The translations under genes and the position numbers were made by a program. 64,000 bases of DNA from an uncultured virus (IMG/VR IMGVR_UViG_2831345111_000005) (Duplodnaviria > Heunggongvirae > Uroviricota > Caudoviricetes), in IMG/VR virus record IMGVR_UViG_2831345111_000005; one strand, 5' to 3'. Positions 49,647-64,000 of the stretch are shown here, piece by piece. The notes under the pieces were generated by a model. It was not told the DNA's origin and did not search any database. It was given only the letters and a program-made list of their open reading frames with translations. Positions within the stretch are counted from its first letter, which is position 1, and each line of letters opens with the position of its first letter.

Positions 49647-49654
49647 TTTTAAAA

Positions 49655-49732
49655 CGGGATATAGCGCAGCCTGGTTAGCGCGCCGGTCTGGGGGACCGGA
49701 GGCCCCGAGTTCAAATCTCGGTATCCCGACCA
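49655..49732 (+). tRNA. tRNA-Pro(GGG)
   Basis: CCGGT-CTGGGGG-ACCGG, CCA. Confidence 0.9.
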
Positions 49733-49834
49733 TTTTCTGAGAAAGCTGCAACTGTAGATATTCGAGCGGAAGGAGAGTGCAGCCCCGCGCAGAGCCAATT
49801 AAAAATCCAGGCCATGAAGACCTGGATTTGAGTG

Positions 49835-50167
49835 TTAAGCCGTTGCCCACTTGGCGCTTGGCCGTGTGTATTGCCAGCTTGGGTCGTACTCATGCATGAA
49901 GGTTATTGCCCGGCTGGAGACTTCATACCACTGGTTGTTAGTCCCCTTGAAGCTTGTGCCCGGAATTACATCCGTGACGACACGCGTTATCGGGGGACTC
50001 CTATCCAGCCATACCTGCTCAATCACGCCGTAGCGCAAAGCGGCGGGAAGTACCCGGCTGAATTCTGGGGCAAGAGCACCATAGATGGGATGCTCAGCGA
50101 CCTTGCGAATCAGCGCGACTTGCTTTTCCGTGATGCCATACTTTTTCAACAACGCTTTCTTGTCCAT
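49835..50167 (-). CDS. hypothetical protein
   Basis: AAGGA RBS, 110 aa. Confidence 0.6.
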   Translation of the reverse strand: MDKKALLKKYGITEKQVALIRKVAEHPIYGALAPEFSRVLPAALRYGVIEQVWLDRSPPITRVVTDVIPGTSFKGTNNQWYEVSSRAITFMHEYDPSWQYTRPSAKWATA

Positions 50168-50282
50168 ACCTGTCCTTTGAAGTTAATAACTGTCACTTGG
50201 AGGTATAGGAAAAAAGGCGAAGATTGCCGCTTGTAAACGGATTGTTGGGATATACGTTATTCAGCTACCTACTGGAGGACGT

Positions 50283-50534
50283 ATGTACCCGATTCATCTC
50301 ATCCCGTCGCTTAAAGCCGCGGGATTTAAAATTACCAACGAGCCGGACCTTGTCGACAGGCTTTCTGAAGCTAAGGACTGGCAAGCGGCCTTGGTGACGT
50401 TATTGCGGCATGGCGAGCGTATCGGCATCGAGGTCACCCGTAATCCACTGGCTGGAGCAAGCGTAAGCGCTATCGCACATCAGTTTCACTTGAGCCCGAC
50501 GGTAGAGTCTGAGCTCAACGCTGTGCTGCACTGA
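50283..50534 (+). CDS. hypothetical protein
   Basis: GGAGG RBS; bidirectional terminator at ~50543-50582. Confidence 0.6.
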   Translation: MYPIHLIPSLKAAGFKITNEPDLVDRLSEAKDWQAALVTLLRHGERIGIEVTRNPLAGASVSAIAHQFHLSPTVESELNAVLH

Positions 50535-50593
50535 AGAGACAACAAAAAGCCCCGGCAACTTTGAAGTTGGTCGGGGCTTTGTTGAGATACGCG

Positions 50594-50746
50594 TTAAACC
50601 AGATTGCGTCGCTCCAGCTCGTCTTGAGCGAGGTCGGCGTAATCTTGACGGTTTGCAGCCTTTTCTTTTTCCAGGACGCCATAGACCTGTCGGTCGGTAC
50701 AGGCTTTGAGATAGTCCTTGAATTCTTGTCGGTCTTTTGCAGTCAT
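50594..50746 (-). CDS. small hypothetical protein
   Basis: GAGGA RBS; convergent on the terminator. Confidence 0.55.
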   Translation of the reverse strand: MTAKDRQEFKDYLKACTDRQVYGVLEKEKAANRQDYADLAQDELERRNLV

Positions 50747-51010
50747 GATGTCCTCTCTGTTCGCCCTATCCTTTGCTAAAGCCAAAGTATAAAGCATGTG
50801 TTTAACAATTCCACTGATGTACCCTGGATGAGTGCCTCAGTCAGTATAGGCTTGGGATAGTGCAATACTGTCCATCCAGAATTCGGCTAGACGCCCGCGT
50901 TGAGTCTTGTTACTCCGTGGTGCGAGACAACCCCGTAAGGCCTCCCGGGAGGATAGCGGGACTGCCGAACCTATACTTGACCTGGCAATACAGCCAGTTG
51001 AGGGAAAATC

Positions 51011-51280
51011 ATGAAATCGAAGATTATTAAATTTGTCGTTGATGGGTTCGTAAGTGTCGCGATTCTAGGGCTATTTGCGGTGGTGATGGCCAGTTGTTCA
51101 AAAGCCCCGCCTGCGGTGCAAGCAAGGGCTGACGCAGCAGAGCGCGCCGCAGTACTGCGCAATCTGGAATACTTCAAGGACAAGTTCGGTCTCTGTTACA
51201 CCGACCTGACCGACATTGATTCTCATGGGCACAAAACACACAGCATCACCAATGTTCCCTGTAACCGAGTTGGTCTTTAA
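51011..51280 (+). CDS. putative lipoprotein
   Basis: Hydrophobic segment then MASC lipobox-like motif. Confidence 0.6.
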   Translation: MKSKIIKFVVDGFVSVAILGLFAVVMASCSKAPPAVQARADAAERAAVLRNLEYFKDKFGLCYTDLTDIDSHGHKTHSITNVPCNRVGL

Positions 51281-51312
51281 CTCACTACGCCACTGCATAA
51301 GTGGCGTTTTTT

Positions 51313-51504
51313 ATGGAGATTCCAATGCCGGAAACCAACCAGTCGCTATCCGACCGCAAGAAGCAGCACGACGACTTTATGGCGCTACTCGAAACAGGCG
51401 CGCACCTCGATACGACCTTCCTGCCCATCGAGCCTTATCTGGTTGGATTATCGAATATCAGGGATGTGACTTTGCCTGTAGCGAGCGTACACAGAAAATC
51501 ATGA
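51313..51504 (+). CDS. small hypothetical protein
   Basis: Short ORF; start uncertain. Confidence 0.4.
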   Translation: MEIPMPETNQSLSDRKKQHDDFMALLETGAHLDTTFLPIEPYLVGLSNIRDVTLPVASVHRKS

Positions 51505-51518
51505 TGACCTAACACGAT

Positions 51519-51591
51519 ACCCCCGTAGCTCAGTGGAAGAGTATCGGCATCCGAAGCCGATGGTCGGTGAGTTCAAGTCTCCCCGGGGGTG
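51519..51591 (+). tRNA. tRNA-Arg(CCG), CCA not encoded
   Basis: TCGGC-ATCCGAA-GCCGA. Confidence 0.85.
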
Positions 51592-51599
51592 CCCTTGTA

Positions 51600-51628
51600 T
51601 TGACATATTTGGCTATTTGTGGCATAAT
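51600..51628 (+). promoter_or_regulatory. sigma70-type promoter upstream of the ncRNA block
   Basis: TTGACA-17 nt-CATAAT. Confidence 0.65.
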
Positions 51629-51666
51629 TAACAAACTGACTGAGGCGAACGGTAATTCGTCTTTAG

Positions 51667-51827
51667 GCTTATCTGCCCAGCAGCGAAAGAATCCGCGCAG
51701 GCTGAGTTGGCAACTCCAGCCGAGCAAACCTCGACCAGGCAAACTTGGGCTAGGCGTGCGCGAGATACCGCAAAGCAGGTCGCCAACCTGTCCTTGCCCT
51801 TACGGGCAGGCTGCTGGGCAGATAAGC
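51667..51827 (+). ncRNA. structured RNA closed by a perfect 18-bp stem
   Basis: GCTTATCTGCCCAGCAGC / GCTGCTGGGCAGATAAGC. Confidence 0.55.
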
Positions 51828-51828
51828 T

Positions 51829-52036
51829 TGATGTCATTTGCAATGTCGTAGCTCAGATAAACGAAGGGTTTGGCGTGATTACGGCCGTAGTCGCGTCGAG
51901 CTTCTAGTTGCGATAAAGCGCTTGAAAGTCGATGAGTGCGCACGATTCGATAAGTAGGGCGTGGAAAGCTTTAGAGAGCGCCATCACGTGGAGTGGTGGA
52001 GGTCGTCCCGGCGGACCGGCATTGCAAATGGCATCA
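51829..52036 (+). ncRNA. structured RNA closed by a 20-bp stem (2 G-U pairs)
   Basis: TGATGTCATTTGCAATGTCG / CGGCATTGCAAATGGCATCA. Confidence 0.55.
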
Positions 52037-52041
52037 AAATT

Positions 52042-52132
52042 GGCGAGGTGGCTGAGTGGTTTAAAGCGCGCGTCTCGAAAATGCGAGGTCGTGATGAACG
52101 GCCCCAGGGTTCGAATCCCTGCCTCGCCGCCA
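52042..52132 (+). tRNA. tRNA-Ser(CGA)
   Basis: CGCGT-CTCGAAA-ATGCG, long V arm, GCCA end. Confidence 0.9.
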
Positions 52133-52214
52133 GTTAACTTAACATTGATATTGCCAATATGCTTATTTTGCATATACTGCCAATTCAATTGCTCTTTAAC
52201 AAAAAAACGAACTC

Positions 52215-52493
52215 GCATTACACAGCTGCGGCGTGGATAGGACACGCTAGGCACGGTGCAGAAACATGAAATCCAGACTCGAAAAGACTCATATCCGGCT
52301 CCTAGTGAGAAGCGGTGGTTAGTTAGAGCCTACACGCCAATTAGCGTTGGCTATCGGTATCGTTCACGAGATTCAGTTGGACTGCGAAGGTGCTGATAGG
52401 AAAATGGAGTGGGCTACGCTGACGAGCGCCCCACCGGAGGGCACTGGCAGTGTGTGTCTGAGCTGGAATCAAGCCCAGCCGGCTGTGTAATGC
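52215..52493 (+). ncRNA. large tRNA-like RNA, paralogue 1
   Basis: Closing stem GCATTACACAGCTG/CGGCTGTGTAATGC, D-like GCGTGGATAGGACACGC, T-like GCTGGAATCAAGCCCAGC. Confidence 0.6.
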
Positions 52494-52499
52494 AAGTTT

Positions 52500-52700
52500 T
52501 GAATATAGTTTCGACAGCCGCGGCGTGGTTTGACACGCTACGAAGCTGGTAAGTAAGCGAGTGGAAAGGCGCAACGCATCTGGAGGCATCCGGATTAAGT
52601 CGAGGTAGCCCACTCCGGGGTTGACTGTCTCAGCCATGGTTTGCAGCCATGTACCTCCCCAAAGCAGGGTTCGCTCTGCCGGCTGTCGAAACTATATTCA
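52500..52700 (+). ncRNA. large tRNA-like RNA, paralogue 2
   Basis: Perfect 21-bp closing stem; D-like GCGTGGTTTGACACGC, T-like GCAGGGTTCGCTCTGC. Confidence 0.6.
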
Positions 52701-52744
52701 GCGCGATTCTGCATGTGCTTGCACAGGCATGGCGCGATGAATAT

Positions 52745-53608
52745 TCCCGCATGGGGGTGATAGCTGCAGTGATGCAGTCAAAGCGAGGTAGCCCACTAAC
52801 TCGCGCCTGTCCGCAAACAGGTCAATCCATGCAAGCCTCCCTGGCGCCGTGAGGCGCGCTTCGCTGACAAGAGCGGCGGAGCTAGGGGTAAAGCGTGTGG
52901 ATGGGAAAGAACTTTGCCTTACGGGCCGGCCTTACGGCTGGGAACCCGTGGTATTGAACAGCAGCGGGTGGTGCCGCGGTCCAGCCAAACCAAACACGTT
53001 AATCCGGACGGGAAAGGGTAGCGTTGTTGTCGTAGATGCCCTCAATGGCGACAACGCAGATTTAAGGGTAATGGCATAGGCCCCGCTGGGACCATGACAG
53101 AATCCTGAAAATCGGTTGAGTATCCGGCAGGAGAAAGACATGCTGCGAAGCGTATTCTGTGTCTCAAAAGGACATGGAGCGTTTGGACACGCTCGCGGCG
53201 GTGGGTTGCAATAGCTCAATTGGAAGAGCGTCAGAATTGATAATCTGAAGGCTGTGGATTCGAACTCCACTCGCATTTAAACGCAAAGTCGTGTCCGACA
53301 GCACATGAAAGTGGCTTAATTCTGCCCACGGCGACGTGAAGGCAGACATCCAAAGCTCGCAAAGCTGAGGGTGTTGATTGGAATCCGCACGTAGAGGCTG
53401 CAACCTCGAACGGCTCGCAAGGTCGGCGGTAGGACGATAATCGAGTAGTGTGTTGTGTCATGGAGGAAGCCTTCCTTGGCGAAAGCCTAAAACGGCAGCC
53501 ACGGTGCCCGACTCCTTTGAGGGGTGGATAAGCCAGAAACGCTGGGACGCAAGCCCGGCGATAACCTGAGCGAACGGGGTGCTATTAAAGCTGTAATCTC
53601 AAGCTTTT
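52745..53608 (+). ncRNA. GOLLD-like large ncRNA (5' boundary uncertain) with an embedded tRNA-Ile(GAU)-like module at ~53205-53278
   Basis: ~0.9 kb with no credible ORF and dense hairpins, inside a tRNA array, with an embedded tRNA. 3' motif order CTCGCAAGG..CGAGTAGTG..CTAAAAC..GTGGATAAG..GAAAC..CTGTAATCTCAAGC resembles the GOLLD 3' domain as I recall it; not verified by a covariance-model search. Confidence 0.65.
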
Positions 53609-53725
53609 ATCTCAAGAGTGAATGCTTTTGAGGATGTGCTCATCGAGGACATCCTTAAGTGTAGTTACTACCGCCGCGAGTTAAACCCCGCGTCGAATAG
53701 CAGAGCGACTCAAAAGCGTCGCTCA

Positions 53726-53900
53726 ATCCATGGAGCACTGGCGTGCAACAGTTCTTATAAAACTGTGTTGAAATGTCATATGTTGGCGCAACTCCAACCT
53801 TCGCCGTCGATGGTGATGTCGCCCAGTAGCCGGGCGTCGCAGGACAGCTTCCTGCGGCTCGACAGCTAAACAAGCCGGTTCAATTCCGGCGCCATGGTTC
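53726..53900 (+). ncRNA. tRNA-like RNA with a UAU anticodon arm and a ~110-nt variable region
   Basis: D arm GCAC-TGGC-GTGC, CAGTT-CTTATAA-AACTG, T arm GCCGGTTCAATTCCGGC, CCATGG pairing. Confidence 0.55.
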
Positions 53901-53917
53901 AGTATGAAATGACAATG

Positions 53918-54411
53918 ATGGAACTTGAGGCCTACGGGCAACTTTACGCAATACGAAACTCAGGCTTGACCTATGTTGGTCAGGCTTTGGGGTCTTCATT
54001 GCGTAGGTGGCGGAACATTTGAGATTGCTTCAGTGTGGAAGACATCATTGTCGGCCTCTTCAAAGGGTATTTGACGAAGTTGGCCTTGTTGGGGTGACAT
54101 TCCAAGTTCTAAAAGATATGGTTCCGCATACCATGTTGGATTATGAGGAATTTACCTTTACCGTGAACCTGGGTGGCATTAATGCGCCTCCTGTTAAAGC
54201 CGTGAAAGAAAAAACAAAGCAAGAAATTATTGGTGAGCTAAAAAATGGTGATGCCTATCGCACTATTGCGGCGAAGCATAATGTGTCTTTGGGCTATATA
54301 TCAAAAATAAAGACTCAATATCTACCAGTGCGAACAAGGTCCGCATGCTTGAAGCGTCATTTTGAACTTGGCTTCAGAGCGGGGTTTAGGTCATGCGGCT
54401 CTCGTTGTTGA
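53918..54411 (+). pseudogene. frameshifted GIY-YIG homing-endonuclease-like gene with a C-terminal HTH-like region
   Basis: Frame 1 reads MELEAYGQLYAIRNSGLTYVGQALGSSLRRW (stop at 54020-54022); the -1 frame continues AEHLRLLQCGRHHCRPLQRVFDEVG..FQVL. Confidence 0.65.
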
Positions 54412-54935
54412 ACAGGCCTTCTGGGTATCACCAGTAGGCCATCTGAAACACAATCGGCCTTAATTTGGGATGCCTACTGCAGTTGGCTAACCAGACGGCT
54501 CGGGGCCGCAGAATACCGAGCCGGCATATTGAATTCAGGTGAAACCCTTGCATAAGGGCCGGGAGGGATGTCTCTCTTTGGGGTGATGGGCACATCATGA
54601 GTAACCTAAATCTGCTTCTTCTTGGCGCTTCGGCGCGACAAAGGTGGACCTGCGAGCCGGAGAAGTAGTATCGGGGCCAAATTCTCAAAGCGCGTTATCT
54701 CACGCTTCCATTGCAGTTGATGACATCCTGTCATCTATCTCTGCATCACCGACATAATGCTGTCGGTACATTAATCCAAATAAAATTTTGCGCACCTGCG
54801 CTTTAACGCTTAGGTTATTGAGCTCAGCCATTCAATTCCATTATTAAATGTAAGGTTGCTTTACAGGACATAAATATCTGCATATACTGTAACTAACAAT
54901 ATAGTATTTGTCTACGATAGTTCCACCTGTACGCC

Positions 54936-55850
54936 ATGCCTAAATTTAACAAGATATTTGTTGCCTCACTGCTCTCGCTTTTTGCGTGCGCAGCCATCCC
55001 TGCCACTTGGGGGGTCGTAAAAAATGTTGGCTCAGCCAACATGACCTGGCATGCTGTTTCGTCAGGCAATACAGCAAATCTTACCTGGCATAAGCTAGGC
55101 TCTATTACTTGCACCTTCTCCAATAAGGTTACCTTTACAGCAAACACGTCCTGGACGGTTCCGGGGACAGGCTGCGGAACTATACGCGTGAAAGCCTGGG
55201 GAGCTGGAGGTAATGGTGGTGCCTTCAATTATTATGGCGGCGGCGGCGGATTTGGTCAGGCAGATGTACCTGCCCCCGCAGGCTCAACCCTATTGGTTGC
55301 TGTCGGGGGTGGTGCCAAATACCTTGCTGGGGCATCTGCTGGCGGTACTAATGGAGGGGGCGGTAGTTCCTCGAACACCTCAACTGGAGGTGGAGGTTAT
55401 TCTGGGGTATTTAAGAATAATTCAGCCTCCCAAGCTAATGCATTGGTCATGGCTGGGGGTGGCGGGGGTGGCGTTCTTGCTGCGGGTGGTGCGGGAGGTG
55501 GCTCTGCTGGTGCGGCAGGTGGTGGGTCAAGTTGTGGGGGAGGCGGAACACAATCTGGAGGAGGTGGCTCAGGTGGGTCTATGGGCTCTGCTGGGTCTGC
55601 TCTCCAAGGCGGTAGTGGGCTCTCAAATCTATCGGGGGCAGGAGGCGGTGGCGGCTATTTCGGCGGGGGCGCTGGCTATGCAGGTGGCGGCGGTTCTGGC
55701 TATATCGTCCCCGGGGCGTCTAACTCAAGACTACTGAATGGCTCCGGTTCGGCTGTAGCTAATTCAGGAGATACGGACTACGTCGCAGGAAAGGGGAACG
55801 GGGTTCAAGCCACAAACGCTCAGCCTGGATATGTTGTAATATACTATTAA
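54936..55850 (+). CDS. secreted glycine-rich protein (adhesin/fibre-like)
   Basis: Signal peptide, TWHKLG, WTVP...RVKAWGAGG, Gly-rich body, C-term GYVVIYY. Confidence 0.75.
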   Translation: MPKFNKIFVASLLSLFACAAIPATWGVVKNVGSANMTWHAVSSGNTANLTWHKLGSITCTFSNKVTFTANTSWTVPGTGCGTIRVKAWGAGGNGGAFNYYGGGGGFGQADVPAPAGSTLLVAVGGGAKYLAGASAGGTNGGGGSSSNTSTGGGGYSGVFKNNSASQANALVMAGGGGGGVLAAGGAGGGSAGAAGGGSSCGGGGTQSGGGGSGGSMGSAGSALQGGSGLSNLSGAGGGGGYFGGGAGYAGGGGSGYIVPGASNSRLLNGSGSAVANSGDTDYVAGKGNGVQATNAQPGYVVIYY

Positions 55851-55882
55851 ATATGCTATAGTTTAACCTTCACAAAATCATC

Positions 55883-55959
55883 CGGGGTATAGCTCAGCTT
55901 GGTAGAGCGCTGCGTTCGGGACGCAGAGGCCGCGTGTTCAAATCACGCTACCCCGACCA
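55883..55959 (+). tRNA. tRNA-Pro(CGG)
   Basis: CTGCG-TTCGGGA-CGCAG, CCA. Confidence 0.9.
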
Positions 55960-55967
55960 AATTTTCC

Positions 55968-56043
55968 GGGCCAATAGCTCAGTTGGGAGAGCGCCGCGTT
56001 CGCAACGCGGAGGTCGGGAGTTCGAACCTCCTTCGGTCCACCA
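55968..56043 (+). tRNA. tRNA-Ala(CGC)
   Basis: G3-U70, CCGCG-TTCGCAA-CGCGG, CCA. Confidence 0.9.
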
Positions 56044-56060
56044 AGATTGAGTCATACATC

Positions 56061-56309
56061 ATGCGCCATAACTACATCAAACAAGGCTCTGGAGCACATT
56101 GGGCAGCCAACACCGACGGGTATGGGCGCATCCTGGTACAACTGGGAGATACCTTTGGAGACCAGGCACGTGTAGTGCTTACACAAGAAGAGGCTCTAGC
56201 TCTCATCCAGGGTATTCTGACTACCGCTCTGAAAGCTGCCGCTGAGCCTAAAATCGAGGAGCTGTATGGCCTCATCAGTCGATATCCAGAAACGTCAAAG
56301 GAATTGTAA
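56061..56309 (+). CDS. hypothetical protein
   Basis: ORF after the tRNA; the track's upstream extension is tRNA sequence. Confidence 0.5.
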   Translation: MRHNYIKQGSGAHWAANTDGYGRILVQLGDTFGDQARVVLTQEEALALIQGILTTALKAAAEPKIEELYGLISRYPETSKEL

Positions 56310-56424
56310 TGCTCGCTTCTAAATTATCCCTCAACAAGTTCATCCTGCGGTAGGCCGACAGCTCTTGAGTAGCGCGGGAGGGTCCCGCGTGGCGGTCGGT
56401 CACCGTCCCTAGAGGACGAGCAAG

Positions 56425-56646
56425 ATGAACAAATCAATGAAACGCGCCTTGCGTCGGCATCATGCCGCGCGAGTGAAGAAAAACCGTCGATATCACTGGG
56501 GCCGGGATATGAGCCTCGAGCCTACTATGTGGGCTGTTCTTATTAACACGCCAACCCCATGCTCATGTGCATCATGTGGTAATCCAAGGAAATATCTGGG
56601 AGAGCTCACCATCCAGGAGCTACGTCACCTCCAGCTTGATGAGTGA
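56425..56646 (+). CDS. small basic CxCxxC protein
   Basis: RALRRHH..R, TPTPCSCASCGNPRK..LTIQE; GAGGA RBS in a hairpin. Confidence 0.7.
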   Translation: MNKSMKRALRRHHAARVKKNRRYHWGRDMSLEPTMWAVLINTPTPCSCASCGNPRKYLGELTIQELRHLQLDE

Positions 56647-56698
56647 CTAAATACCAGGATGTTTCCTATACATCCTAGTATTTTACTTGGGTATTCTT

Positions 56699-57601
56699 AT
56701 GCGTTACTTTGCAAAACTCATGTTGGGCATTTTGGCCGCTATGTCATGTGCGGCCTCGGCGGCTGTATGGTCACCAATTTCAAGCTTCACTGCGGCGAAT
56801 AAATGGAACGGCATCTGCGTAACTTCTGGAGCGGCGAACACTTGGCACAAGCTGGGCCCCTGTTCTGCCTATGATATTGCGCTTACAGTAAGTTCCAACC
56901 AAACAAATTACAACGTCAGAACCGCAGCTATTGCCGCTGGATGGGACGGAGTCACCCCGGTCAGTGTGGGCGTCACCATCAATAGTGGTGTTGTTATCTC
57001 CTCATCAACGACAAGCACTGCGGCATTTGTATCTGGGTCATTCCCGGCTGGAAGTTCGCTCACCATCGCTAATAGCGGTCGTATTGAAGGCCGGGGCGGT
57101 AATGGGGGTAAAGGTGGGGGGCTTGGAGGCGCAGGCTCTGCGGGGGGAGCTGGAGGTGCGGCAGTTAGCGTTACCGTTCCAACGACCATTAATAACATCG
57201 GAACCATTTATGGGGGAGGTGGAGGTGGCGGTGGCGGACAAGTCGCAGGCACACACCTTAACTCTGGTGGCGGCGGTGGTGGTGGCGGTGTAGGGGTCTC
57301 ATCCGGTGGAGCTGGCGGTACAGGCGCTGCAGCGGGCGCTTCATCAGGAGCGGGCGGAACAATTTCAGCTGCTGGCGCAGGTGGCGCCGGAGGTAATAAC
57401 GGCGGGGGTTACATCGGCGGAAGCGGAGGTGCTGGCGGCGGTTATGGAGCAGCCGGGGCATCCGGCGGAACAGCATCAACCACTGGGCCATACGGCCCCT
57501 ATGCGGGTGGTGCTGCAGGTGCTGCCGTACAGGCTAATGGATATACGCTGACCTGGACGTCCGGGAATAATTCCACCCAGGTTAAAGGCCCGATTCAATG
57601 A
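56699..57601 (+). CDS. secreted glycine-rich protein (adhesin/fibre-like), related to 54936-55850
   Basis: Signal peptide, TWHKLG, N.G.I.G.GG.GG motifs, Gly-rich body. Confidence 0.75.
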   Translation: MRYFAKLMLGILAAMSCAASAAVWSPISSFTAANKWNGICVTSGAANTWHKLGPCSAYDIALTVSSNQTNYNVRTAAIAAGWDGVTPVSVGVTINSGVVISSSTTSTAAFVSGSFPAGSSLTIANSGRIEGRGGNGGKGGGLGGAGSAGGAGGAAVSVTVPTTINNIGTIYGGGGGGGGGQVAGTHLNSGGGGGGGGVGVSSGGAGGTGAAAGASSGAGGTISAAGAGGAGGNNGGGYIGGSGGAGGGYGAAGASGGTASTTGPYGPYAGGAAGAAVQANGYTLTWTSGNNSTQVKGPIQ

Positions 57602-57626
57602 TGCTCTTGAAATTGTAAAACATGAG

Positions 57627-57710
57627 GTCCCGGTGGCGGAATTTGGTAGACGCGCCGTTCTCAAAAATCGGTTCGAAAGAGTGCGGGTTCGAATCCCGCC
57701 TGGGACACCA
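57627..57710 (+). tRNA. tRNA-Leu(CAA)
   Basis: CTCAAAA loop, Leu-type D arm, CCA. Confidence 0.9.
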
Positions 57711-57737
57711 TCTTAATTGTTCGTTTTGGTACTAATA

Positions 57738-58268
57738 ATGCGCATATTTTACGATACCGAATTCACGTCTCTGTCAGCAGCGGCCGAACTTATTTCCGCT
57801 GGATTCGTCACCGAACACGGGCAAGAGTTCTACATTGAGTTCGATGGCATTGCAAAGTCCGAGTGTTCGGACTTTGTACTCGAAATCGTCTACCCGATGC
57901 TACGCGCACCTGGCGTTATCGTCAGCTCTCCCTTGATGGCCGCCCAGCACATCATCGACTGGCTCGCTGCTCAAGCTGCGTATGTGCGGCTGGTCTCGGA
58001 CAACAATTATGACAGCTACTTGATGAGCAAACTGTTTCACAAACTGCTCGATTACAAGTCCAAAATAGAAGGTTACCGTCAAGAGGTTTCGCCCAATCTC
58101 AACATCAAATACGAACACCTAGGCTTTCCCGACTATGTGGCGGCAAAGGAATTTAAGAGGGCCTGTGAAGACTACTTCCTGGACCATCCTGACTGCCAAC
58201 ACCATGCGCTCCATGACGCCCGCTCACTCAAGCATGGGGTCATGCGAAGTGAGGGGTATTACTCTTGA
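57738..58268 (+). CDS. DEDDh 3'-5' exoribonuclease-like protein
   Basis: IFYDTEFT, LIS.G.V, FY, YD, HHALHDAR. Confidence 0.8.
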   Translation: MRIFYDTEFTSLSAAAELISAGFVTEHGQEFYIEFDGIAKSECSDFVLEIVYPMLRAPGVIVSSPLMAAQHIIDWLAAQAAYVRLVSDNNYDSYLMSKLFHKLLDYKSKIEGYRQEVSPNLNIKYEHLGFPDYVAAKEFKRACEDYFLDHPDCQHHALHDARSLKHGVMRSEGYYS

Positions 58269-58335
58269 CAATTTTAGCTATTTTTGCTACTATTTAGGCT
58301 CACGATACGCACTTGTTAACAAGTGGCGTTATCAA

Positions 58336-58629
58336 TTGTGCCATCGGGCGGTAGGCTTAGAAGCAGCCAGCTGGGCGAGACCCAGCAATCCGATAATGAG
58401 TGGTGATAGGCGCACGTGACCGTGGAGAGATTCACCCTGATGAATCCCACAGACCCGTGAGACTCGCGGGAACTGGAAGCAGGGCAAAGGCGAATGTTAC
58501 TGAAGGACCTGGTTGGGATGAGCATGAGACTCTTCCGGGTGAAGGAAGTCGCTTGGAAACAAGGTTGCTAGGGCGTAGCTCCCTGAAATGTCCAATAACC
58601 TTTAGCGTAGCAGCACACCTTTGGCACAA
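58336..58629 (+). ncRNA. ncRNA containing a split 23S rRNA L11-binding-domain (H43/H44) mimic
   Basis: GTAGGCTTAGAAGCAGCCA (58351-58369) and AGCGTAGCAGCACAC (58604-58618), closed by TTGTGCCA/TGGCACAA. Confidence 0.65.
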
Positions 58630-58634
58630 CAATT

Positions 58635-58712
58635 GGGCCTTAAGCTCATACGGTATGAGCACCCGACTCATAATCGGAAGGTACATGGGTTCGAACCCCT
58701 GAAGGCCCACCA
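58635..58712 (+). tRNA. tRNA(CAU), probably Ile2 (lysidine) type
   Basis: GGGCCTT/AAGGCCC, CCGA-CTCATAA-TCGG, ACCA. Confidence 0.8.
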
Positions 58713-58717
58713 CACAT

Positions 58718-58838
58718 GCTGGTGTGATGGAATCGGTAGACATATGCGGTGGCCACCCGGGCGTCAGAACCGGAGCACGAGCCTTCTCGGGAATCGGAGA
58801 GCCGCAGGCAATTGCGAGTTCGAGCCTCGCCACCAGCG
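58718..58838 (+). ncRNA. tRNA-like RNA (Leu-type D arm) with the anticodon loop replaced by a ~55-nt branched domain
   Basis: GCTGGTG/CACCAGC, TGCGG...CCGCA stem, T arm GCGAGTTCGAGCCTCGC. Confidence 0.7.
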
Positions 58839-58861
58839 CCCCTATAGAGATTGGAGTCGAT

Positions 58862-59140
58862 ATGTCCTACGTCGCCCCCACTGATGAACAGTTGACACGT
58901 TGGCGAGCCATTTATACCAAGCATGCCACGCCCACTTTAGCCCGACAGCGACCAGCCAATAGACGTTATGTGATGACGATGATGCAAAGGGCTGAGCAGC
59001 TGGCTCGTGAGGGGCAAGAGCTCTCCGATATGGACCTGCTCAACATATTTGTTTACTCGGTCAGACCGGGGTTTGTCTATCGGGATGATGAAACAATTGC
59101 TGCCTGTCGCCGCATGATGCGTGAAGCGGCAGAAATTTAA
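58862..59140 (+). CDS. hypothetical protein
   Basis: GGAG RBS before the ATG at 58862. Confidence 0.6.
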   Translation: MSYVAPTDEQLTRWRAIYTKHATPTLARQRPANRRYVMTMMQRAEQLAREGQELSDMDLLNIFVYSVRPGFVYRDDETIAACRRMMREAAEI

Positions 59141-59141
59141 T

Positions 59142-59219
59142 GCCGCGCTGACGGGAATTGGTAAACCTCCTGTCCTTAAAATTCAGGGTCTCCGCGTTCG
59201 AGTCGCGGGCGCGGTACCA
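59142..59219 (+). tRNA. tRNA-Leu(UAA), short variable loop
   Basis: CTTAAAA loop, Leu-type D arm, CCA. Confidence 0.8.
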
Positions 59220-59239
59220 CTTACAAAAAGGAAAAAACG

Positions 59240-59707
59240 ATGTCCTTACTTGATACCATCCAGGCAGCAAGTCTCTCGGCGCGAAAGGCTCGCAATACGG
59301 ACGAAGCTGCGTTACTGACAACCTTATTCGCTGAAGCTGCTCGCGTCGGCAAGGACGACGGCAATCGCGTGTCGACCGATGCTGAAGTTCAGGAAGTTGT
59401 GCGCAAGTTCATCAAGAACAACAACGACACCATCCAAGCTCTCTGGATTCCGGAGAAGATTGACTTGGACGAAGCCCGTGTGGCGCGCCGTACCAAGCTC
59501 CAGCTCGAGCAGGCTGTCCTGATGTCGTTCCTGCCTAAGCAAGCAGCGCCTGAAGAGCTGCAGGCCGCCGTAAGTGAGATTGTGGCCGCGCTGCCGGATA
59601 AGTCCACCAAGCACATGGGGGCTGTGATGGGCCAGCTTAACAAGCGCTTTGGCGCCAACTTCGACAAACGTTTCGCCAGTGAATTGGTGAAGCATGCGCT
59701 TCAGTAA
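59240..59707 (+). CDS. GatB/YqeY domain protein
   Basis: ARKARN..A.LL.TL..E, D.EV..V.RK.IK, E..VL..FLPKQ, MG.VMG.L. Confidence 0.85.
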   Translation: MSLLDTIQAASLSARKARNTDEAALLTTLFAEAARVGKDDGNRVSTDAEVQEVVRKFIKNNNDTIQALWIPEKIDLDEARVARRTKLQLEQAVLMSFLPKQAAPEELQAAVSEIVAALPDKSTKHMGAVMGQLNKRFGANFDKRFASELVKHALQ

Positions 59708-59751
59708 TTGCGGCATGTGTTGCGCTTGTCCAAGGGAGTGAATACGCTATT

Positions 59752-60009
59752 ATGACCAGCAAGATTGACCAACTTCCAGCACTACCTGATGACTCATGGG
59801 GTTACGCCGCGCATAGCTCGAATGAGAATGTCATCCATATTGCATGGAGTGGAAGAGGTGCGGTGTCGATAAACTTCAAGCTGCGCTCCATTGAACTGGG
59901 GTGGTGTGTACCAGGGCCGAATAACCAATCTGAAGCCCACTCCGGTAAGGGTTGGAGTGAGGCTCTTGTGAGAGCGGCTATCAGCAAGCTTCAAGCGGCC
60001 TGGGCGTAA
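59752..60009 (+). CDS. hypothetical protein
   Basis: 85-aa ORF. Confidence 0.5.
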   Translation: MTSKIDQLPALPDDSWGYAAHSSNENVIHIAWSGRGAVSINFKLRSIELGWCVPGPNNQSEAHSGKGWSEALVRAAISKLQAAWA

Positions 60010-60032
60010 CCATCAATGCAATTAAAAAATCT

Positions 60033-60107
60033 CTCCCCGCGCTCCGGAGTGCCCGGCGGCCTTCTAAGCCGTACCGGTTATGAGTTCGAATCTCTACGGG
60101 GAGGCCA
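60033..60107 (+). tRNA. tRNA-Arg(UCU), divergent D arm
   Basis: CTCCCCG/CGGGGAG, CGGC-CTTCTAA-GCCG, GCCA end. Confidence 0.8.
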
Positions 60108-60116
60108 ATCAATACC

Positions 60117-60404
60117 ATGGATTTGACGTATCTTTTAGGCAAGCCTGGCAAACGGGTGAAAATGTCTCCCAACCTAAAAAAGGCACTCAAGGTCAGCGCT
60201 AGGCAGGGGCGTCGGGAAACGGTCTACCGCATGCTGAAAAAGCGTCAGGCCGGACATGTCCCATGTGCGCTTTGTGGCGCCTTGGTGTCAGAAAAGGAAG
60301 CGGCGCTGACTGATTTTGATGCCAAATCCATGGCTTGCGAGTCGGTCGATGGTTTTGTCATCATCCACAAAGCCTGCCCTGGAAATTGTTCAGTACCCTC
60401 GTAG
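60117..60404 (+). CDS. hypothetical protein (CxxC...HxxC)
   Basis: 95 aa; the 3' end overlaps the start of tRNA-Arg(CCU). Confidence 0.5.
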   Translation: MDLTYLLGKPGKRVKMSPNLKKALKVSARQGRRETVYRMLKKRQAGHVPCALCGALVSEKEAALTDFDAKSMACESVDGFVIIHKACPGNCSVPS

Positions 60405-60466
60405 CTCAGCGGAAGAGCGACGGGCTCCTATCCCGTAGGCCGGACGTTCGATTCGTCTCGAGGGTG
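60395..60466 (+). tRNA. tRNA-Arg(CCU), CCA not encoded
   Basis: ACGGG-CTCCTAT-CCCGT. Confidence 0.85.
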
Positions 60467-60772
60467 CCCTCCATAGCAACGGGAGCATATGCTCCCGTAA
60501 TTCATTCGCAATTCGCGATTAGCGATTGCAAACGTACATCGTTACTTCAAAACCAAAACGCATTTCGGTTACTTCAGGCTTGGTCCACATGTTAAGTCTC
60601 CTTAGGAATTAATTGAATGGGAGATGTCCCATCTGTAGGCTTTGAGTGAGGCTATCGCCTGAGGTTCTGCTCCAGCCCTAGAGGGCATCCTGATTCATGC
60701 CTAAAGAAAACCATTAACGTCGTGCTTGCGCGCTATACCTCGTGTGTTTAATTAACTTTACGAGGAAAAATC

Positions 60773-61362: not shown

Positions 61363-63576
61363 ATGCAATTCGTAAATCTGGAAGTAGGCACCTTGTATTT
61401 GACGTCAGGCTTGCCTGGCGCCGGCAAGTCCACGTGGCTGGGAAGCGGCAACATTTTACCCAGCATGATTCTATCTGCGGATGCAATTCGTGAGTCCGTG
61501 CTTGGCCATAAAATGGTCGGTGGCTTGAAGCATATTTTTCAGGACAGGAATGATGTTGTCTGGTCATTACTGAATCAAATCCTGGAAGTTCGCCTCAAGG
61601 AAAAGCTCACGACGTTCGTGGATGCAACGTTACTCAACGATGCTGAGCGTGAGCCTTTGGTGAAGCTCGCCCAGAAGCATGGCGTGAAAGTGGTAGTGCT
61701 GATTTTTGACCGCCCCTTTGACACGTGTATGGTGCAAAACATTTCCCGGCAAGACCGGGTCTCCGAGTATCGGATGAATGAGATGTCCAAGGAGTTTCAG
61801 CTGGACAGCATGTATCCGTTCGTGCGTGTGCCGGAATTCACGGTGCCTCGGTTGGTGTCTCGCGACCTGCCTGACACCAACTTCGATGTCATCGGGGATG
61901 TTCATGGCCTGCTTGACGACTTGAAGGTGTTGCTGGGCAAGCTCGGGTATTCCCTCGAGTCTGGTGTGCCCGTACATCCGCAGGGCCGTAAGCTGCTTTT
62001 CCTGGGTGACGTCGTTGACCGTGGGCCTCAATCCATTGAGACCTTGAAGTTCGTCCGCCAGGCTATAGCGGTTGGGCACTTGATGGTCGCAGGTAATCAT
62101 GAGCGCAAATTGCTGCAGTTCTGGGATTCACTCCAGACTGGGGCACCTCGCGCAAATTCTCCATCTGCTGCTGAAACGGCCATGGAGTTCATGAAGCTGC
62201 GTGAGGAAGAACAGCAGGCTTTGATTCAGTTTGTCCGAAACCTGCCTGGCTTCTACACTGTGACCGACGGGCCACTCCAGCTTGCGTTTGCGCATGCACC
62301 GCAGACGGCTTTTCATCCTTTCACGATTCTGCATTCTGAATGCCTGTATGGCGGGAATGAGTTGCCGGATTATGGCGATGAGGACGCCGACGGGATGTAT
62401 GCGGAGAGCTATCGCAGCGGCGAATCACGGCACATGCTTATCCATGGGCACATCCCGTTGACGAGTATGCATCATTGCGTGTTCTCACTGGACGCCCACC
62501 AAGCGTTTGCCGGAAACATGCTGGCCTTGCGCCTGGATGGATTCTTGGCTGACTGTCGCGAAAAGATGGCTCAAGAGGCCTTCAATGACAATCTCGTTTC
62601 CCAAAAGTGCGAGTTTGACTTCGACGTACACAGCGCCAAGTTTGAACTGAAGCGTTCGCTGGATAAGCTGAAGACCGCCAAGATGGTGACCGTGCAAACG
62701 GAGCCGTCGGCCGGCCTATCGCTCTACAAGTATTCGAAGCGTGTGTTTTTCGATGCATTGTGGGGTGAGAGCCCTTATCTCCTGAAGGCTCGCGGTATCG
62801 TGCTTGACCTGGCTGGAAACATTGTCGTGCATCCGTTCGACAAGGTGTTTAACTATGGTGAAAACGGTGCCGGTCTCGATATCGCAGACGACCATCCGGT
62901 CTACGCGGTTGAGAAGATGAATGGCTTCCTAGGCTGCATCAGTCGCCATCCTTGGAAGAATGAACTGCTGGTGACGAGCTCCGGGTCATTCGACTCGCCG
63001 TTCGTTGACTACATCAAGTCGTTCATCACGCCGGCATTGAAGGGGCTGCTCCTCTCGTACTTCTCGCGCAACAACGTGACGCTCATGTTCGAGGTTCTGC
63101 ATCCGGAAGACCCGCACATCATCCAGTACCGGCCGCAAGACATGGGCCTTTGGTTGATTGGTGGGCGAGGTAAGGAGCAGGGCGCTGAGCCGATAACGGA
63201 AGATGAGTTGGACGAAATCGGGTTGATGTTGACCGTGAATCGTCCGGAGTGGTTCTACACGTCGTTCGGGCAGCTGAAGGAAAAGGTGGCCACCTCCCGA
63301 CTGGAAGGCTATATGGTTCGGGATGCGAAGTCACACAAGACGCTCTTGAAGTTCAAGACGCCTTATTACCTTGTGACCAAGTTCCTCGGCCGTATGAGCG
63401 ACACCAAGGTACGGCACATGTTCTGTCATCCTAAGGGATTCAAGAAGGACATCGATGAGGAGTTCTACCCGTTGGTCGACCACCTGGTCACCACAACCTC
63501 GGAGACTGACTTCTTGGCGCTGCCGGATACAGAACGTGTAGTCCTGGTGCGAGACGCAATTCAAGCACTGCGCTAA
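61363..63576 (+). CDS. polynucleotide kinase-metallophosphatase-RNA ligase (Rnl1-like) fusion for RNA repair
   Basis: GLPGAGKST + VDAT kinase; GDVHG/GDVVDRG/GNHE/HGH phosphoesterase; ARG..PFDKVFN, EKMNG, FE, EGY, K.K ligase motifs. Confidence 0.9.
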   Translation: MQFVNLEVGTLYLTSGLPGAGKSTWLGSGNILPSMILSADAIRESVLGHKMVGGLKHIFQDRNDVVWSLLNQILEVRLKEKLTTFVDATLLNDAEREPLVKLAQKHGVKVVVLIFDRPFDTCMVQNISRQDRVSEYRMNEMSKEFQLDSMYPFVRVPEFTVPRLVSRDLPDTNFDVIGDVHGLLDDLKVLLGKLGYSLESGVPVHPQGRKLLFLGDVVDRGPQSIETLKFVRQAIAVGHLMVAGNHERKLLQFWDSLQTGAPRANSPSAAETAMEFMKLREEEQQALIQFVRNLPGFYTVTDGPLQLAFAHAPQTAFHPFTILHSECLYGGNELPDYGDEDADGMYAESYRSGESRHMLIHGHIPLTSMHHCVFSLDAHQAFAGNMLALRLDGFLADCREKMAQEAFNDNLVSQKCEFDFDVHSAKFELKRSLDKLKTAKMVTVQTEPSAGLSLYKYSKRVFFDALWGESPYLLKARGIVLDLAGNIVVHPFDKVFNYGENGAGLDIADDHPVYAVEKMNGFLGCISRHPWKNELLVTSSGSFDSPFVDYIKSFITPALKGLLLSYFSRNNVTLMFEVLHPEDPHIIQYRPQDMGLWLIGGRGKEQGAEPITEDELDEIGLMLTVNRPEWFYTSFGQLKEKVATSRLEGYMVRDAKSHKTLLKFKTPYYLVTKFLGRMSDTKVRHMFCHPKGFKKDIDEEFYPLVDHLVTTTSETDFLALPDTERVVLVRDAIQALR

Positions 63577-63643
63577 GCAATAACGCTATACCCTCATGCC
63601 CCGCACATTTGTGTGGGGCGTTTTTCCATCCAAGGAGTACATC

Positions 63644-64000
63644 ATGAAATTAACGCTGGAGATTCGCGCCGCCGAGGGCGGTGAAGATGCCAAGCTCCTG
63701 GTTCATGACCAGGCAGCCATTTATCAACGCTATGCCGCACGTAACGGCATCAAGGCGTCTGTGGAGACACGGGGCCACCTTTGACCTGGTAACTCTCGAG
63801 GGACCAGCAGAAATTCTTGCCATCCTGCGCAATGAGGCCGGCGGCCATCGCTGGCAACGCGTACCTCCGACCGAACGCAAGGGCAGGATGCAAACCAGTA
63901 CCGTCACCGTTGCCGTAATGGAGGGTGAAAAATACGCTCCTTTACAGCTGAATGTGAACGATATCCAGGAGAGAGTAACAAAGGGGACTGGTCCAGGCGG
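63644..64000 (+). CDS. class I peptide chain release factor homologue (RF1-type PxT, lacking domain 1) with a programmed +1 frameshift at 63779-63785; truncated by the window end
   Basis: LEIRAAEGGEDA in frame 0; after CTT-TGA-C the +1 frame gives NEAGGHRWQRVPPTERKGRMQTSTVTVAV...KGTGPGG. Confidence 0.85.

What the first reader, a model, noticed from the sequence alone, without database searches (positions are those of the whole stretch)
63644..64000. RF1-type release factor controlled by an RF2-style CTT-TGA-C +1 frameshift, next to an RNA-repair enzyme
Seen: ORF 63644 (AAGGAG RBS) reads MKLTLEIRAAEGGEDAK...RGHL and stops at CTT TGA C (63779-63785), preceded by an SD-like CGGGGC three nt upstream. 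The +1 frame continues with no stop to the window end: ...NEAGGHRWQRVPPTERKGRMQTSTVTVAV...KGTGPGG. Known: an internal SD plus CTT-TGA-C is the prfB (RF2) autoregulatory frameshift, RF2 carries SPF and reads UGA, and RF1 carries PxT and reads UAG/UAA. PrfH also lacks domain 1 and is paired with the RtcB2 ligase. Inference: this PxT factor would not terminate at its own UGA, so it would be made when host RF2 or UGA termination is impaired. That is a cross-regulatory sensor rather than autoregulation. Its position after a PNKP-ligase suggests a ribosome rescue/RNA repair module analogous to RtcB2-PrfH. The ORF track misses it.
Basis: partly seen in the sequence, partly recalled or inferred. Interest (0 to 1): 0.9.

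Follow-up and report, generated by a model that had tools for sequence, protein, structure and literature searches.

The report
Frameshift-gated short RF1 on plasmid island
A plasmid-like element that carries its own set of tRNA genes also carries a shortened translation-termination factor whose gene can be read only if the ribosome slips one base at a UGA stop, the trick so far known only from bacterial release factor 2.

Summary
ATG 63644 opens a 46-codon frame that ends CAC CTT TGA C (63776-63785) behind a GGGG run. The +1 frame runs on past the window to a stop at 64314-64316, and GGQ starts at 63996. Read with one +1 slip, the product is a 223-aa RF1-type factor without domain 1: RF1 model 174 bits, RF2 89, PrfH 44.

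The slip is not an assembly error. Of 101 short relatives from phage-like contigs, plasmids and bacterial genomes, 27 need the same CTT-stop +1 shift, at two different codon positions. Another 66 carry one or two in-frame stops instead, almost always TGA, and only 8 are uninterrupted. None of 75 standard-code full-length prfA control genes is interrupted.

The factor keeps an RF1-type P-x-T motif, and the host prfB has its own GGAGG-TAT-CTT-TGA-C site. Gating by host RF2 rather than self-regulation is therefore the best inference, but it is untested.

The proposed PNKP-ligase/PrfH-like repair module is not supported. That neighbour recurs in only 5 of 94 loci, whereas tRNA arrays recur in 62 of 94.

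I found nothing in print on this. Earlier agents of this scan noted the same family on other DNA.

The parts
61363..63576 (+). Upstream neighbour: a fusion of kinase (AAA_33), metallophosphatase and T4 Rnl1-type RNA ligase, 737 aa. It resembles Pnkp in its first 390 residues. It is not a conserved partner of the release factor.
   Evidence: phrog_8238 RNA ligase. Relatives lie in the flanks of 5 of 94 short-RF loci.
63596..63626 (+). Terminator-like hairpin (11 pairs) followed by a T run, lying between the ligase gene and the release-factor gene.
   Evidence: L001 2596-2621 plus TTTTT; sequence.
63632..63637 (+). AAGGAG ribosome-binding site, 6 nt before the ATG.
63644..63781 (+). Frame-0 part of the release-factor gene: 46 codons, MKLTLEIRAAEGGEDAK...RGHL. 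This is the start of RF domain 2, including the helix-5 tip.
   Evidence: It aligns to RF1 models and to 1zbt continuously across the junction. It is 65-80% identical to frame 0 of L006, L008 and L012.
63771..63774 (+). Internal SD-like GGGG (within CGGGGC), 4 nt before CTT counted from the last G, or 3 nt from the end of CGGGGC.
   Evidence: Duplex with the anti-SD tail is -6.4 kcal/mol. 21 of 26 frameshift-type relatives reach -6 or lower, against 2 of 68 in-frame-stop sites.
63779..63785 (+). Shift site CTT TGA C. The P-site Leu codon CUU re-pairs on UUU, and the UGA-C stop is bypassed in the +1 frame.
   Evidence: All 27 frameshift-type relatives have CTT before the stop (25 TGA, 2 TAG).
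63783..64000 (+). +1-frame part of the gene (DLVTLEG...). It runs beyond the window to codon 223, with the stop at window-equivalent 64314-64316. It holds the PPT motif at 63864-63872 and the start of GGQ at 63996.
   Evidence: (PCRF 102-194/194, RF-1 5-116/116).
42096..60469 (+). Array of 38 tRNA genes upstream, the conserved context of this gene family. A 39th tRNA lies beyond the window.

Best explanation
Shown by sequence and comparison: the locus encodes a 223-aa class-I release factor of RF1 type that lacks domain 1. It sits in the translation island of a plasmid-like element, together with 39 tRNA genes, a second (permuted) tmRNA, a PTH2 hydrolase and a Pnkp-like RNA ligase. The full protein can be made only by a programmed +1 ribosomal frameshift at GGGG-N4-CUU-UGA-C.

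Mechanism, inferred from the prfB paradigm: a ribosome with Leu-tRNA on CUU in the P site pauses at the weak UGA-C stop, and the internal SD-like element pairs with 16S rRNA. Either RF2 terminates, giving a 46-aa peptide, or the tRNA re-pairs on UUU and reading goes on in the +1 frame.

Inferred: the product has an RF1-type P-x-T reader, so it should not read UGA. The gate would then be set by host RF2 activity. The factor would be made at a low level normally and at a higher level when UGA termination is slow. That would add UAA/UAG termination capacity and relieve RF2 of UAA work.

Across the family the constant feature is an early UGA that must be bypassed. The means of bypass varies: a frameshift in GC-richer, SD-using settings, and readthrough elsewhere.
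For: Gene and product:
- One +1 step gives an uninterrupted 223-aa protein.
- It matches Pfam PCRF and RF-1.
- It scores 174 bits on the RF1 model, 89 on RF2 and 44 on PrfH, as a single stretch across the junction.
- In the PDB, RF1 scores 131.8 bits, RF2 about 49 and PrfH 39.

Frameshift is real:
- 18 of the first 22 related loci change from frame 1 to frame 2 at CTT TGA or CTT TAG.
- The final tally of 101 short genes is 27 frameshift, 57 single in-frame stop, 9 double in-frame stop and 8 continuous. Among 38 clusters at 60% identity, 33 are interrupted.
- All 27 frameshift sites use CTT.
- SD-like pairing reaches -6 kcal/mol or lower at 21 of 26 frameshift sites, against 2 of 68 readthrough sites.
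- 10 of 27 have no start codon available in the +1 frame upstream of the site.
- Every recoded gene gives a complete protein of 219-232 aa.
- None of 75 standard-code full-length prfA loci is interrupted.

Not another genetic code:
- Neighbours of the in-frame-stop genes are TGA-free and use TGG. 53 of 62 such loci hold a stop-free ORF of 250 aa or more, with 675 TGG in 39,497 codons in the subset below 50% GC.
- The same genes keep TGG at their other Trp positions.

RF2 gating:
- The gate codon is UGA at 25 of 27 frameshift sites and at all but 2 readthrough stops, and is never UAA.
- PPT is present in 86 of 95 relatives.
- The host prfB carries GGAGG TAT CTT TGA C.
- Passages of PMC1586002 say that truncated RF1 works in vitro and in vivo.
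Against: - There is no experimental evidence here for frameshifting, for the product, or for its codon specificity.
- No sequencing run could be listed.
- The family differs from canonical RF1 in both codon-reading elements. It has Pro as the middle residue of PxT (0 of 72 canonical genes have this) and Asp where canonical RF1 has Glu at the helix-5 tip. UGA reading by the factor itself is therefore not excluded.
- Four relatives use UAG as the gate (L021, L171, L117, L130) with the same PPT motif. An RF1-type factor would read that codon itself, so the cross-regulation logic is not universal.
- The SD-like element here (GGGG, -6.4 kcal/mol) is weaker than in most relatives (-9 to -10).
- A gate may simply hold expression low, without any sensing role.
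Confidence: 0.62

Rival explanations
1. Classical autoregulation, as in prfB. The short factor has acquired UGA (or all-stop) recognition, terminates at its own gate codon, and so limits its own synthesis.
For: All known release-factor recoding cases are self-regulating: prfB (PMC12421855 passages) and the Mimivirus RF (PMC3521657 abstract). The family has two fixed differences from canonical RF1 in the decoding elements, PPT and Asp at the helix-5 tip. Both UGA and UAG gates occur with the same motif, which an all-stop reader would explain.
Against: The Thr of PxT, the RF1-type second-base reader, is kept. Overall similarity is clearly to RF1 and not RF2: 174 against 89 bits, and 131.8 against about 49 bits. 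UAA, which every bacterial class-I factor reads, is never the gate.
Confidence: 0.15
2. A fixed translational throttle without a sensing role. The early stop only keeps the yield of a potentially harmful, RF3-independent factor low when the gene lies in a strongly transcribed tRNA array. UGA is used because it is the leakiest stop, and because at one common position readthrough restores the native Trp.
For: 46 genes have TGA exactly where canonical RF1 has a conserved Trp (in the code-4 controls L045, L048 and L059 TGA encodes that Trp). RF overexpression lowers fitness (PMC12421855 passages). The gene sits among tRNA genes in 62 of 94 loci.
Against: A throttle could be obtained by a weak RBS. 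Instead a full prfB-like cassette (SD-like element, CTT, UGA, C or G) was built at two different codons, and it interconverted with readthrough at least 10 times on the tree. Any such gate responds to RF2 level by its chemistry, so this rival differs from the best explanation only in whether that response is used.
Confidence: 0.15
3. The gate reports a suppressor or recoding state of the element, not RF2. A UGA-reading tRNA encoded elsewhere on these elements allows passage.
For: RF1 genes accompany suppressor tRNAs in TGA-recoded phages (Borges preprint passages). This element carries an odd tRNA with anticodon UUA.
Against: No tRNA with anticodon UCA lies in the flanks of any of 94 loci. In this genome only the chromosomal tRNA-Sec has it. 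A suppressor does not explain the frameshift variants. Only about 5 kb of flank were examined on each side.
Confidence: 0.05
4. Artefact or decay: a 1-nt assembly error, a pseudogene, or two separately translated pieces.
For: Standard gene calling splits the gene. No reads could be laid on the site.
Against: The same shift, with CTT, occurs in 27 independent assemblies. Both halves are conserved as protein. 10 of 27 lack any +1-frame start. The 46-aa part carries essential domain-2 elements.
Confidence: 0.03

Closest known systems
prfB (RF2) autoregulatory +1 programmed frameshift
   Same: Same cassette: an SD-like element a few nt upstream, a CUU slippery codon, in-frame UGA, and C after the stop. 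It sits in a class-I release factor gene. The host's own prfB has it.
   Different: The gene is of RF1 type (PxT), so the stop is probably read by another protein's product. The site lies in domain 2 (codon 46/47, or 36/37 in other clades), not in domain 1, which this protein lacks. It is therefore an independent origin. UAG occurs as the gate in 2 of 27, against 0 of 8,164 for prfB (PMC12421855 passages). RECODE's CUU-stop +1 sites are all prfB (PMC10885494 passages).
Mimivirus/Megavirus release-factor gene with a frameshift and a readthrough (PMC3521657, abstract read)
   Same: A virus-borne termination factor gene that needs recoding at internal stops. Both recoding modes occur.
   Different: That factor is an eRF1-type, all-stop factor in a eukaryotic virus, and both events occur in one gene. 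Here the factor is a bacterial RF1-type, with one mode per gene, on phages and plasmids.
PrfH (RFH) with RtcB2
   Same: A class-I RF paralogue without domain 1, carried on accessory DNA and seen near RNA-repair genes.
   Different: The PrfH model scores 44 bits against a cutoff of 167. The PDB PrfH chain scores 39 bits against 131.8 for RF1. There is no RtcB next door. The ligase neighbour here is Rnl1-type and is not conserved (5 of 94). No frameshift in RFH genes is mentioned in the passages I read from PMC1586002.
RF-1, Pth and tmRNA genes noted inside tRNA arrays of Mycobacterium and its phages (PMC5966550, passages read)
   Same: The same themed island: tRNA array, tmRNA, peptidyl-tRNA hydrolase and an RF1-like gene on mobile DNA.
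   Different: That paper reports annotation only. The passages I read mention no recoding and no loss of domain 1.
RF1 genes of TGA-recoded phages (Borges et al. preprint 10.1101/2021.08.26.457843, passages read)
   Same: A phage-borne RF1 linked to the handling of UGA.
   Different: Those phages reassign TGA genome-wide, and their code-change module is written in standard code. Here the neighbours use the standard code and only the RF gene carries the UGA.

Membership tests
Bacterial class-I release factor, RF1 type (prfA) | GGQ motif in the RF-1 (peptidyl-hydrolase) domain | tested here: met
   GPGGQ at residues 116-120. Pfam RF-1 68.6 bits, cutoff 35.
Bacterial class-I release factor, RF1 type (prfA) | P-x-T codon-reading tripeptide (not SPF) | tested here: met
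   QRVPPTE at residues 71-77. PPT in 86 of 95 relatives. The middle Pro is not seen in any of 72 canonical genes.
Bacterial class-I release factor, RF1 type (prfA) | N-terminal domain 1 and a full-length match above the curated cutoff | tested here: not met
   The match starts at RF1 model position 106 of 347. Scores are 174 bits against cutoff 400 and 158 against 423. The protein starts 4 residues before the domain-2 strand.
prfB-type programmed +1 frameshift cassette | CUU followed by an in-frame stop and a weak 3' context, with an SD-like element a few nt upstream | tested here: met
   CGGGGC CAC CTT TGA C, with anti-SD duplex -6.4 kcal/mol.
prfB-type programmed +1 frameshift cassette | Conserved among homologues at the same codon | tested here: met
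   6 genes at this codon (L001, L006, L008, L012, L030, L124) and 21 at a second codon. All have CTT.
prfB-type programmed +1 frameshift cassette | Autoregulation: the stop is read by the gene's own product | not testable with these tools
   Inferred not met from the PxT motif and RF1 similarity. It needs release assays.
prfB-type programmed +1 frameshift cassette | Frameshifting shown at the protein level | not testable with these tools
   No run was listed for the locus. There is no proteomic resource.
PrfH (RFH) | Match to TIGR03072 above cutoff | tested here: not met
   44.3 bits against cutoff 166.65.
PrfH (RFH) | Invariably preceded by an rtcB-type gene (PMC1586002 abstract passage) | tested here: not met
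   The upstream gene is a kinase-phosphatase-Rnl1 fusion. This neighbour is present in 5 of 94 loci.
ArfB | GGQ domain with a C-terminal tail and no codon-reading domain | tested here: not met
   23.6 bits against cutoff 100, over the GGQ stretch only. The PCRF domain is present.

The most novel reading that the evidence does not exclude
Phages and plasmids that bring their own tRNA sets also bring a minimal RF1 whose synthesis is wired to the failure of UGA termination. The early UGA, bypassed by frameshift or by readthrough, would act as a sensor of host RF2 activity that switches on a backup termination factor. This would be the first release factor regulated across specificities. It would also be the first natural case of the readthrough-type control of a release-factor gene that was proposed before prfB was sequenced and reported as never found (PMC5009743 passage).
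Probability: 0.45. Interest if true: 0.88.

Novelty: new variant of a known kind. Interest (0 to 1): 0.8.

Why it matters
The CUU-UGA +1 frameshift has stood for decades as a device peculiar to RF2 and tied to self-regulation. A recent survey of more than 12,000 genomes found no programmed frameshift in prfA (PMC12421855 passages). Here the same cassette sits in an RF1-type gene, at a different place in the protein, and has arisen or moved more than once. In sister clades it is replaced by in-frame UGA codons.

If host RF2 sets the gate, mobile elements read the state of the host's termination machinery and answer with their own factor. That is directly testable with reporters and RF2 titration.

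There is also a practical point. Current annotation splits or truncates these genes in RefSeq records of Burkholderia, Paraburkholderia and Variovorax and in phage catalogues. The family, and its place in the translation toolkits of large phages and plasmids, therefore goes unseen.

Tried and rejected
1. Alternative code (TGA = Trp) as the reason for the in-frame TGAs in relatives: rejected. Neighbouring long ORFs are TGA-free and rich in TGG, and the genes keep TGG at other Trp sites. My first ORF-length comparison between code 11 and code 4 and the coverage statistics could not discriminate and were dropped.
2. A suppressor tRNA next to the gene: none with anticodon UCA lies in the flanks of 94 loci. 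Only the flanks were searched.
3. A conserved pairing with the Pnkp-like ligase: 5 of 94 loci.
4. Independent start of the downstream piece: 10 of 27 loci have no start codon available.
5. Megablast of 61300-64000 against phage records: no match.
6. Sequencing runs: none was listed, and no RNA holder was listed.
7. Rfam on the locus: only sub-threshold hits at the terminator after the gene.
8. Search of 150 genomes of the same family: the listed matches are full-length prfA or prfB. 145 weaker matches were not listed, so absence of the short gene there is likely but not proven.
The fold is inferred from profile and PDB sequence matches only.
10. Literature: 8 full-text searches found no paper describing recoding in an RF1-type gene of a phage or plasmid. 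Subscription journals are not covered, and the supplements of the bioRxiv preprint were not seen.

Full report
**1. The observation**

- AAGGAG lies at 63632-63637 and ATG at 63644.
- Forty-six codons (MKLTLEIRAAEGGEDAK...TRGHL) end in CGG GGC CAC CTT TGA C. CTT is 63779-63781 and TGA is 63782-63784.
- The window is G000:C7:4213-68212, so the contig could be read past the window end.
- The +1 frame runs from GAC at 63783 without a stop to window-equivalent 64314-64316. It contains PPT (63864-63872) and GPGGQ, which starts at 63996.
- Read with a single four-base step at the stop, the gene gives a 223-aa protein (P0001).

**2. What the protein is**

- Pfam finds the C-terminal half of PCRF (profile positions 102-194 of 194) and a whole RF-1 domain.
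- NCBIfam gives RF1 174 bits, prfA 158, prfB 89, PrfH 44 and ArfB 24. All are below the full-length cutoffs, because the match begins at RF1 model position 106.
- Against PDB sequences, RF1 chains score 105-132 bits, RF2 chains about 49 and PrfH 39.
- The alignments to the RF1 model and to 1zbt run as a single stretch through the junction ...RGHL|DLVTLEG.... The two reading frames therefore encode one domain.
- The protein is an RF1-type factor without domain 1. It is not PrfH.

**3. Is the shift programmed?**

The first searches gave 22 related loci.
- 18 change from frame 1 to frame 2 at CTT TGA (CTT TAG in one), usually behind GGAGG or GGGGG.
- The other four continue in frame through TGA codons.

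A profile of 22 recoded proteins (A1) brought 80 more viral loci, out of 276 relatives, and 80 genomic loci. The genomic loci are nearly all ordinary prfA and served as controls.

I removed six loci that repeat contigs already held. I read by tblastn the six viral loci that my classifier had missed. The tally of short genes is then 101:

| Type | Genes |
|---|---|
| +1 frameshift | 27 |
| One in-frame stop | 57 |
| Two in-frame stops | 9 |
| Uninterrupted | 8 |

- At 60% identity these form 38 clusters, of which 33 are interrupted.
- All 27 frameshift sites have CTT before the stop: 25 TGA and 2 TAG, followed by C in 21 and G in 6.
- None of the 75 full-length prfA genes in standard-code genomes is interrupted. 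Three more controls, from TGA=Trp organisms, carry TGA at a Trp codon.
- SD-like pairing of -6 kcal/mol or lower precedes 21 of 26 frameshift sites but only 2 of 68 in-frame stops.
- In 10 of 27 frameshift genes no ATG, GTG or TTG exists in the +1 frame between the last upstream stop and the site. The downstream piece cannot start on its own there.

An assembly error, a pseudogene or a split gene is thus excluded for practical purposes. This holds although no reads could be laid on this locus, because no run was listed.

**4. The family picture**

The site occupies two different codons.
- This window's gene and five relatives have it 42 residues after the start of the [LIV]E[LIV]R strand. The five include genes from Achromobacter anxifer, Thiobacillus denitrificans and a Hydrogenophilales MAG.
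- 21 others have it at residue 32.
- The proteins have the same length between conserved landmarks, so these are two distinct sites.

Sister lineages carry in-frame TGA at the same two positions.
- 46 genes carry GGY TGA A at residue 31, exactly where canonical RF1 has a conserved Trp.
- Nine low-GC genes carry two TGAs.

These are not TGA=Trp genomes.
- 53 of 62 such loci hold stop-free ORFs of 250 aa or more in their flanks.
- In the subset below 50% GC there are 675 TGG codons in 39,497 codons of such ORFs.
- Three true code-4 control loci gave one such ORF, and it has no TGG.
- The RF genes themselves keep TGG at other Trp positions.

A quick maximum-likelihood tree was built from 95 short genes and 15 of 73 canonical genes, taking every fifth (LG+G4, SH-aLRT only). 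Duplicates and the six unclassified loci were left out.
- It puts the short family on one side of a branch with support 100.
- Four uninterrupted genes branch at the base.
- A clade of 91 genes (support 97) contains 89 interrupted ones.
- At least 10 changes among frameshift, readthrough and none are needed.
- Frameshift loci are GC-richer (median 0.57) than single-stop loci (0.43) and double-stop loci (0.34).

The constant feature is therefore an early stop, nearly always UGA and never UAA, that must be bypassed.

**5. Context in this genome**

The window and the 20 kb beyond it look like a large plasmid-like or conjugative element.
- Element-type genes: a TrwB-type coupling protein (39430-41265), a PcfJ-like protein, MazEF, a weak TrfA-like match and a ParM-like actin.
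- Housekeeping-type genes: gyrase-like subunits, thymidylate synthase and kinase, and TerC/TerD proteins.
- The element holds 39 of the genome's 92 tRNA genes and a permuted tmRNA. The standard tmRNA is on another contig.
- It also holds a YqeY-like protein, a PTH2 hydrolase 2.2 kb downstream of the RF gene, and a well-formed tRNA with anticodon UUA.
- The chromosome has normal prfA and prfB, and prfB carries GGAGG TAT CTT TGA C.
- Among 150 other genomes of the same family, the listed matches are all full-length prfA or prfB. The short gene is accessory.

**6. The proposed repair module**

The upstream 737-aa protein joins a kinase, a metallophosphatase and an Rnl1-type ligase.
- A relative lies within the flanks of only 5 of 94 short-RF loci.
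- Here a terminator-like hairpin (63596-63621 plus a T run) lies between the two genes.
- By contrast, 62 of 94 loci have at least one tRNA gene in the flanks, 43 have five or more, and 28 have ten or more. The prfA control loci give 8 of 73 with one or more and 0 of 73 with five or more.

The factor travels with tRNA arrays, not with a ligase. The analogy to RtcB2-PrfH is thematic only.

**7. How it most likely works**

Shown: the cassette, its conservation and the RF1-type product.

Inferred from the prfB paradigm (PMC12421855 and PMC10885494 passages):
- The ribosome pauses at UGA-C with Leu-tRNA on CUU, and the upstream G-run pairs with 16S rRNA.
- RF2-mediated termination then competes with re-pairing on UUU.

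Inferred further:
- The product has P-P-T and is far closer to RF1 than to RF2, so it should not read UGA.
- Host RF2 would therefore set the yield.
- A plausible logic is homeostatic. When RF2 is limiting, extra UAA/UAG capacity frees RF2 for UGA.

Points against certainty:
- PPT occurs in 86 of 95 family members and in 0 of 72 canonical genes.
- The helix-5 tip reads EGG(E/D)D where canonical RF1 reads GG(D/E)E. Specificity may therefore have shifted.
- Four relatives use UAG with the same motif.
- A gate can serve merely as a throttle.

I put the programmed frameshift at about 0.93. I put gating by RF2 with a non-UGA-reading product at about 0.6-0.65.

**8. What is known**

- The 2016 review PMC5009743 (passage) states that no RF2 gene has an early in-frame UGA continued in the same frame. 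It also states that the counterpart with UAG and RF1 genes is unknown, and it cites only the giant-virus case (PMC3521657, abstract read).
- PMC12421855 (passages) found 34 prfA pseudogenes without any conserved motif and concluded that RF1 is not regulated in this way.
- PMC10885494 (passage) notes that all CUU-stop +1 entries of RECODE are prfB.
- PMC5966550 (passages) mentions RF-1, Pth and tmRNA genes in mycobacterial tRNA arrays, without recoding.
- The Borges preprint (passages) reports RF1 in TGA-recoded phages.
- PMC6514570 contains neither 'frameshift' nor 'phage'.
- Eight full-text searches found no description of this family's recoding.

Earlier agents of this scan noted the same family on other DNA: a frameshifted short RF1 beside a ligase, UGA-gated phage RF genes, and association with tRNA arrays rather than RtcB. 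I read those notes after my own classification. They agree with it but are not independent evidence.

**9. Verdict**

It is a new variant of a known device: the RF2-type frameshift cassette, and its readthrough equivalent, in a mobile, domain-1-less RF1 family. What remains open, and is testable, is who reads the UGA.

Noticed in passing
L001 8899-8974 (G000:C7:74111-74186; window-equivalent 69899-69974, beyond the window): A well-formed 76-nt tRNA with a 7-nt anticodon loop, anticodon UUA (would read UAA) and an encoded CCA end. It lies 5.6 kb downstream of the release-factor gene. It is the only suppressor-like tRNA in the flanks of 94 related loci.
   Followed up: partly
window 53204-53279 (+): A tRNA-like gene with an 8-nt anticodon loop (ARAGORN reads the anticodon as 'tgat') and a mismatched acceptor stem, inside the array. 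It could be a four-base decoder or a decayed copy.
   Followed up: partly
window 16380-16762 (-): A permuted (two-piece) tmRNA with tag ANDESYRLVA on the element. The genome's standard tmRNA (tag ANDETYALAA) is on contig C13.
   Followed up: partly
L001 5566-6057 (+) (window-equivalent 66566-67057): A PTH2-type peptidyl-tRNA hydrolase (Pfam 99 bits), an archaeal/eukaryotic-type enzyme. It sits 2.2 kb after the release factor and is followed by an HNH endonuclease.
   Followed up: no
window 56687-57601 (+) and L001 7807-8733 (+): Two roughly 305-aa proteins with long Gly-rich runs lie among the tRNA genes. Pfam gives weak matches to GP38 adhesin (first) and the ALK/LTK glycine-rich domain (second). 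Function unknown.
   Followed up: no
L028 11971-12675 (Variovorax sp. SRS16 plasmid 2, NZ_LR594667.1) and three sister plasmids: A relative sits inside a 34-tRNA array on an 800-kb plasmid of a standard-code bacterium. It has a single in-frame TGA (GGC TGA CTC) and continues in the same frame. RefSeq annotates it as two CDS, a hypothetical protein and a 'release factor-like protein'.
   Followed up: partly
L007, L014, L015, L029, L118, L119, L120, L122, L136: Low-GC phage-like contigs in which the short RF gene carries two in-frame TGA codons 8 to 13 codons apart, while neighbouring ORFs of up to 1,106 aa have none.
   Followed up: partly
window 27871-32524 (-), 26016-26978 (+), 5558-6884 (+): The element carries its own GyrA- and GyrB-like subunits, thymidylate synthase, thymidylate kinase and a dNMP kinase. 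This phage-like nucleotide and topology kit sits next to a T4SS coupling protein (39430-41265) and a MazEF pair (36318-36907).
   Followed up: no
window 59240-59704 (+): A YqeY-like (GatB/YqeY domain) protein sits between tRNA genes, adding another translation-related gene to the island.
   Followed up: no
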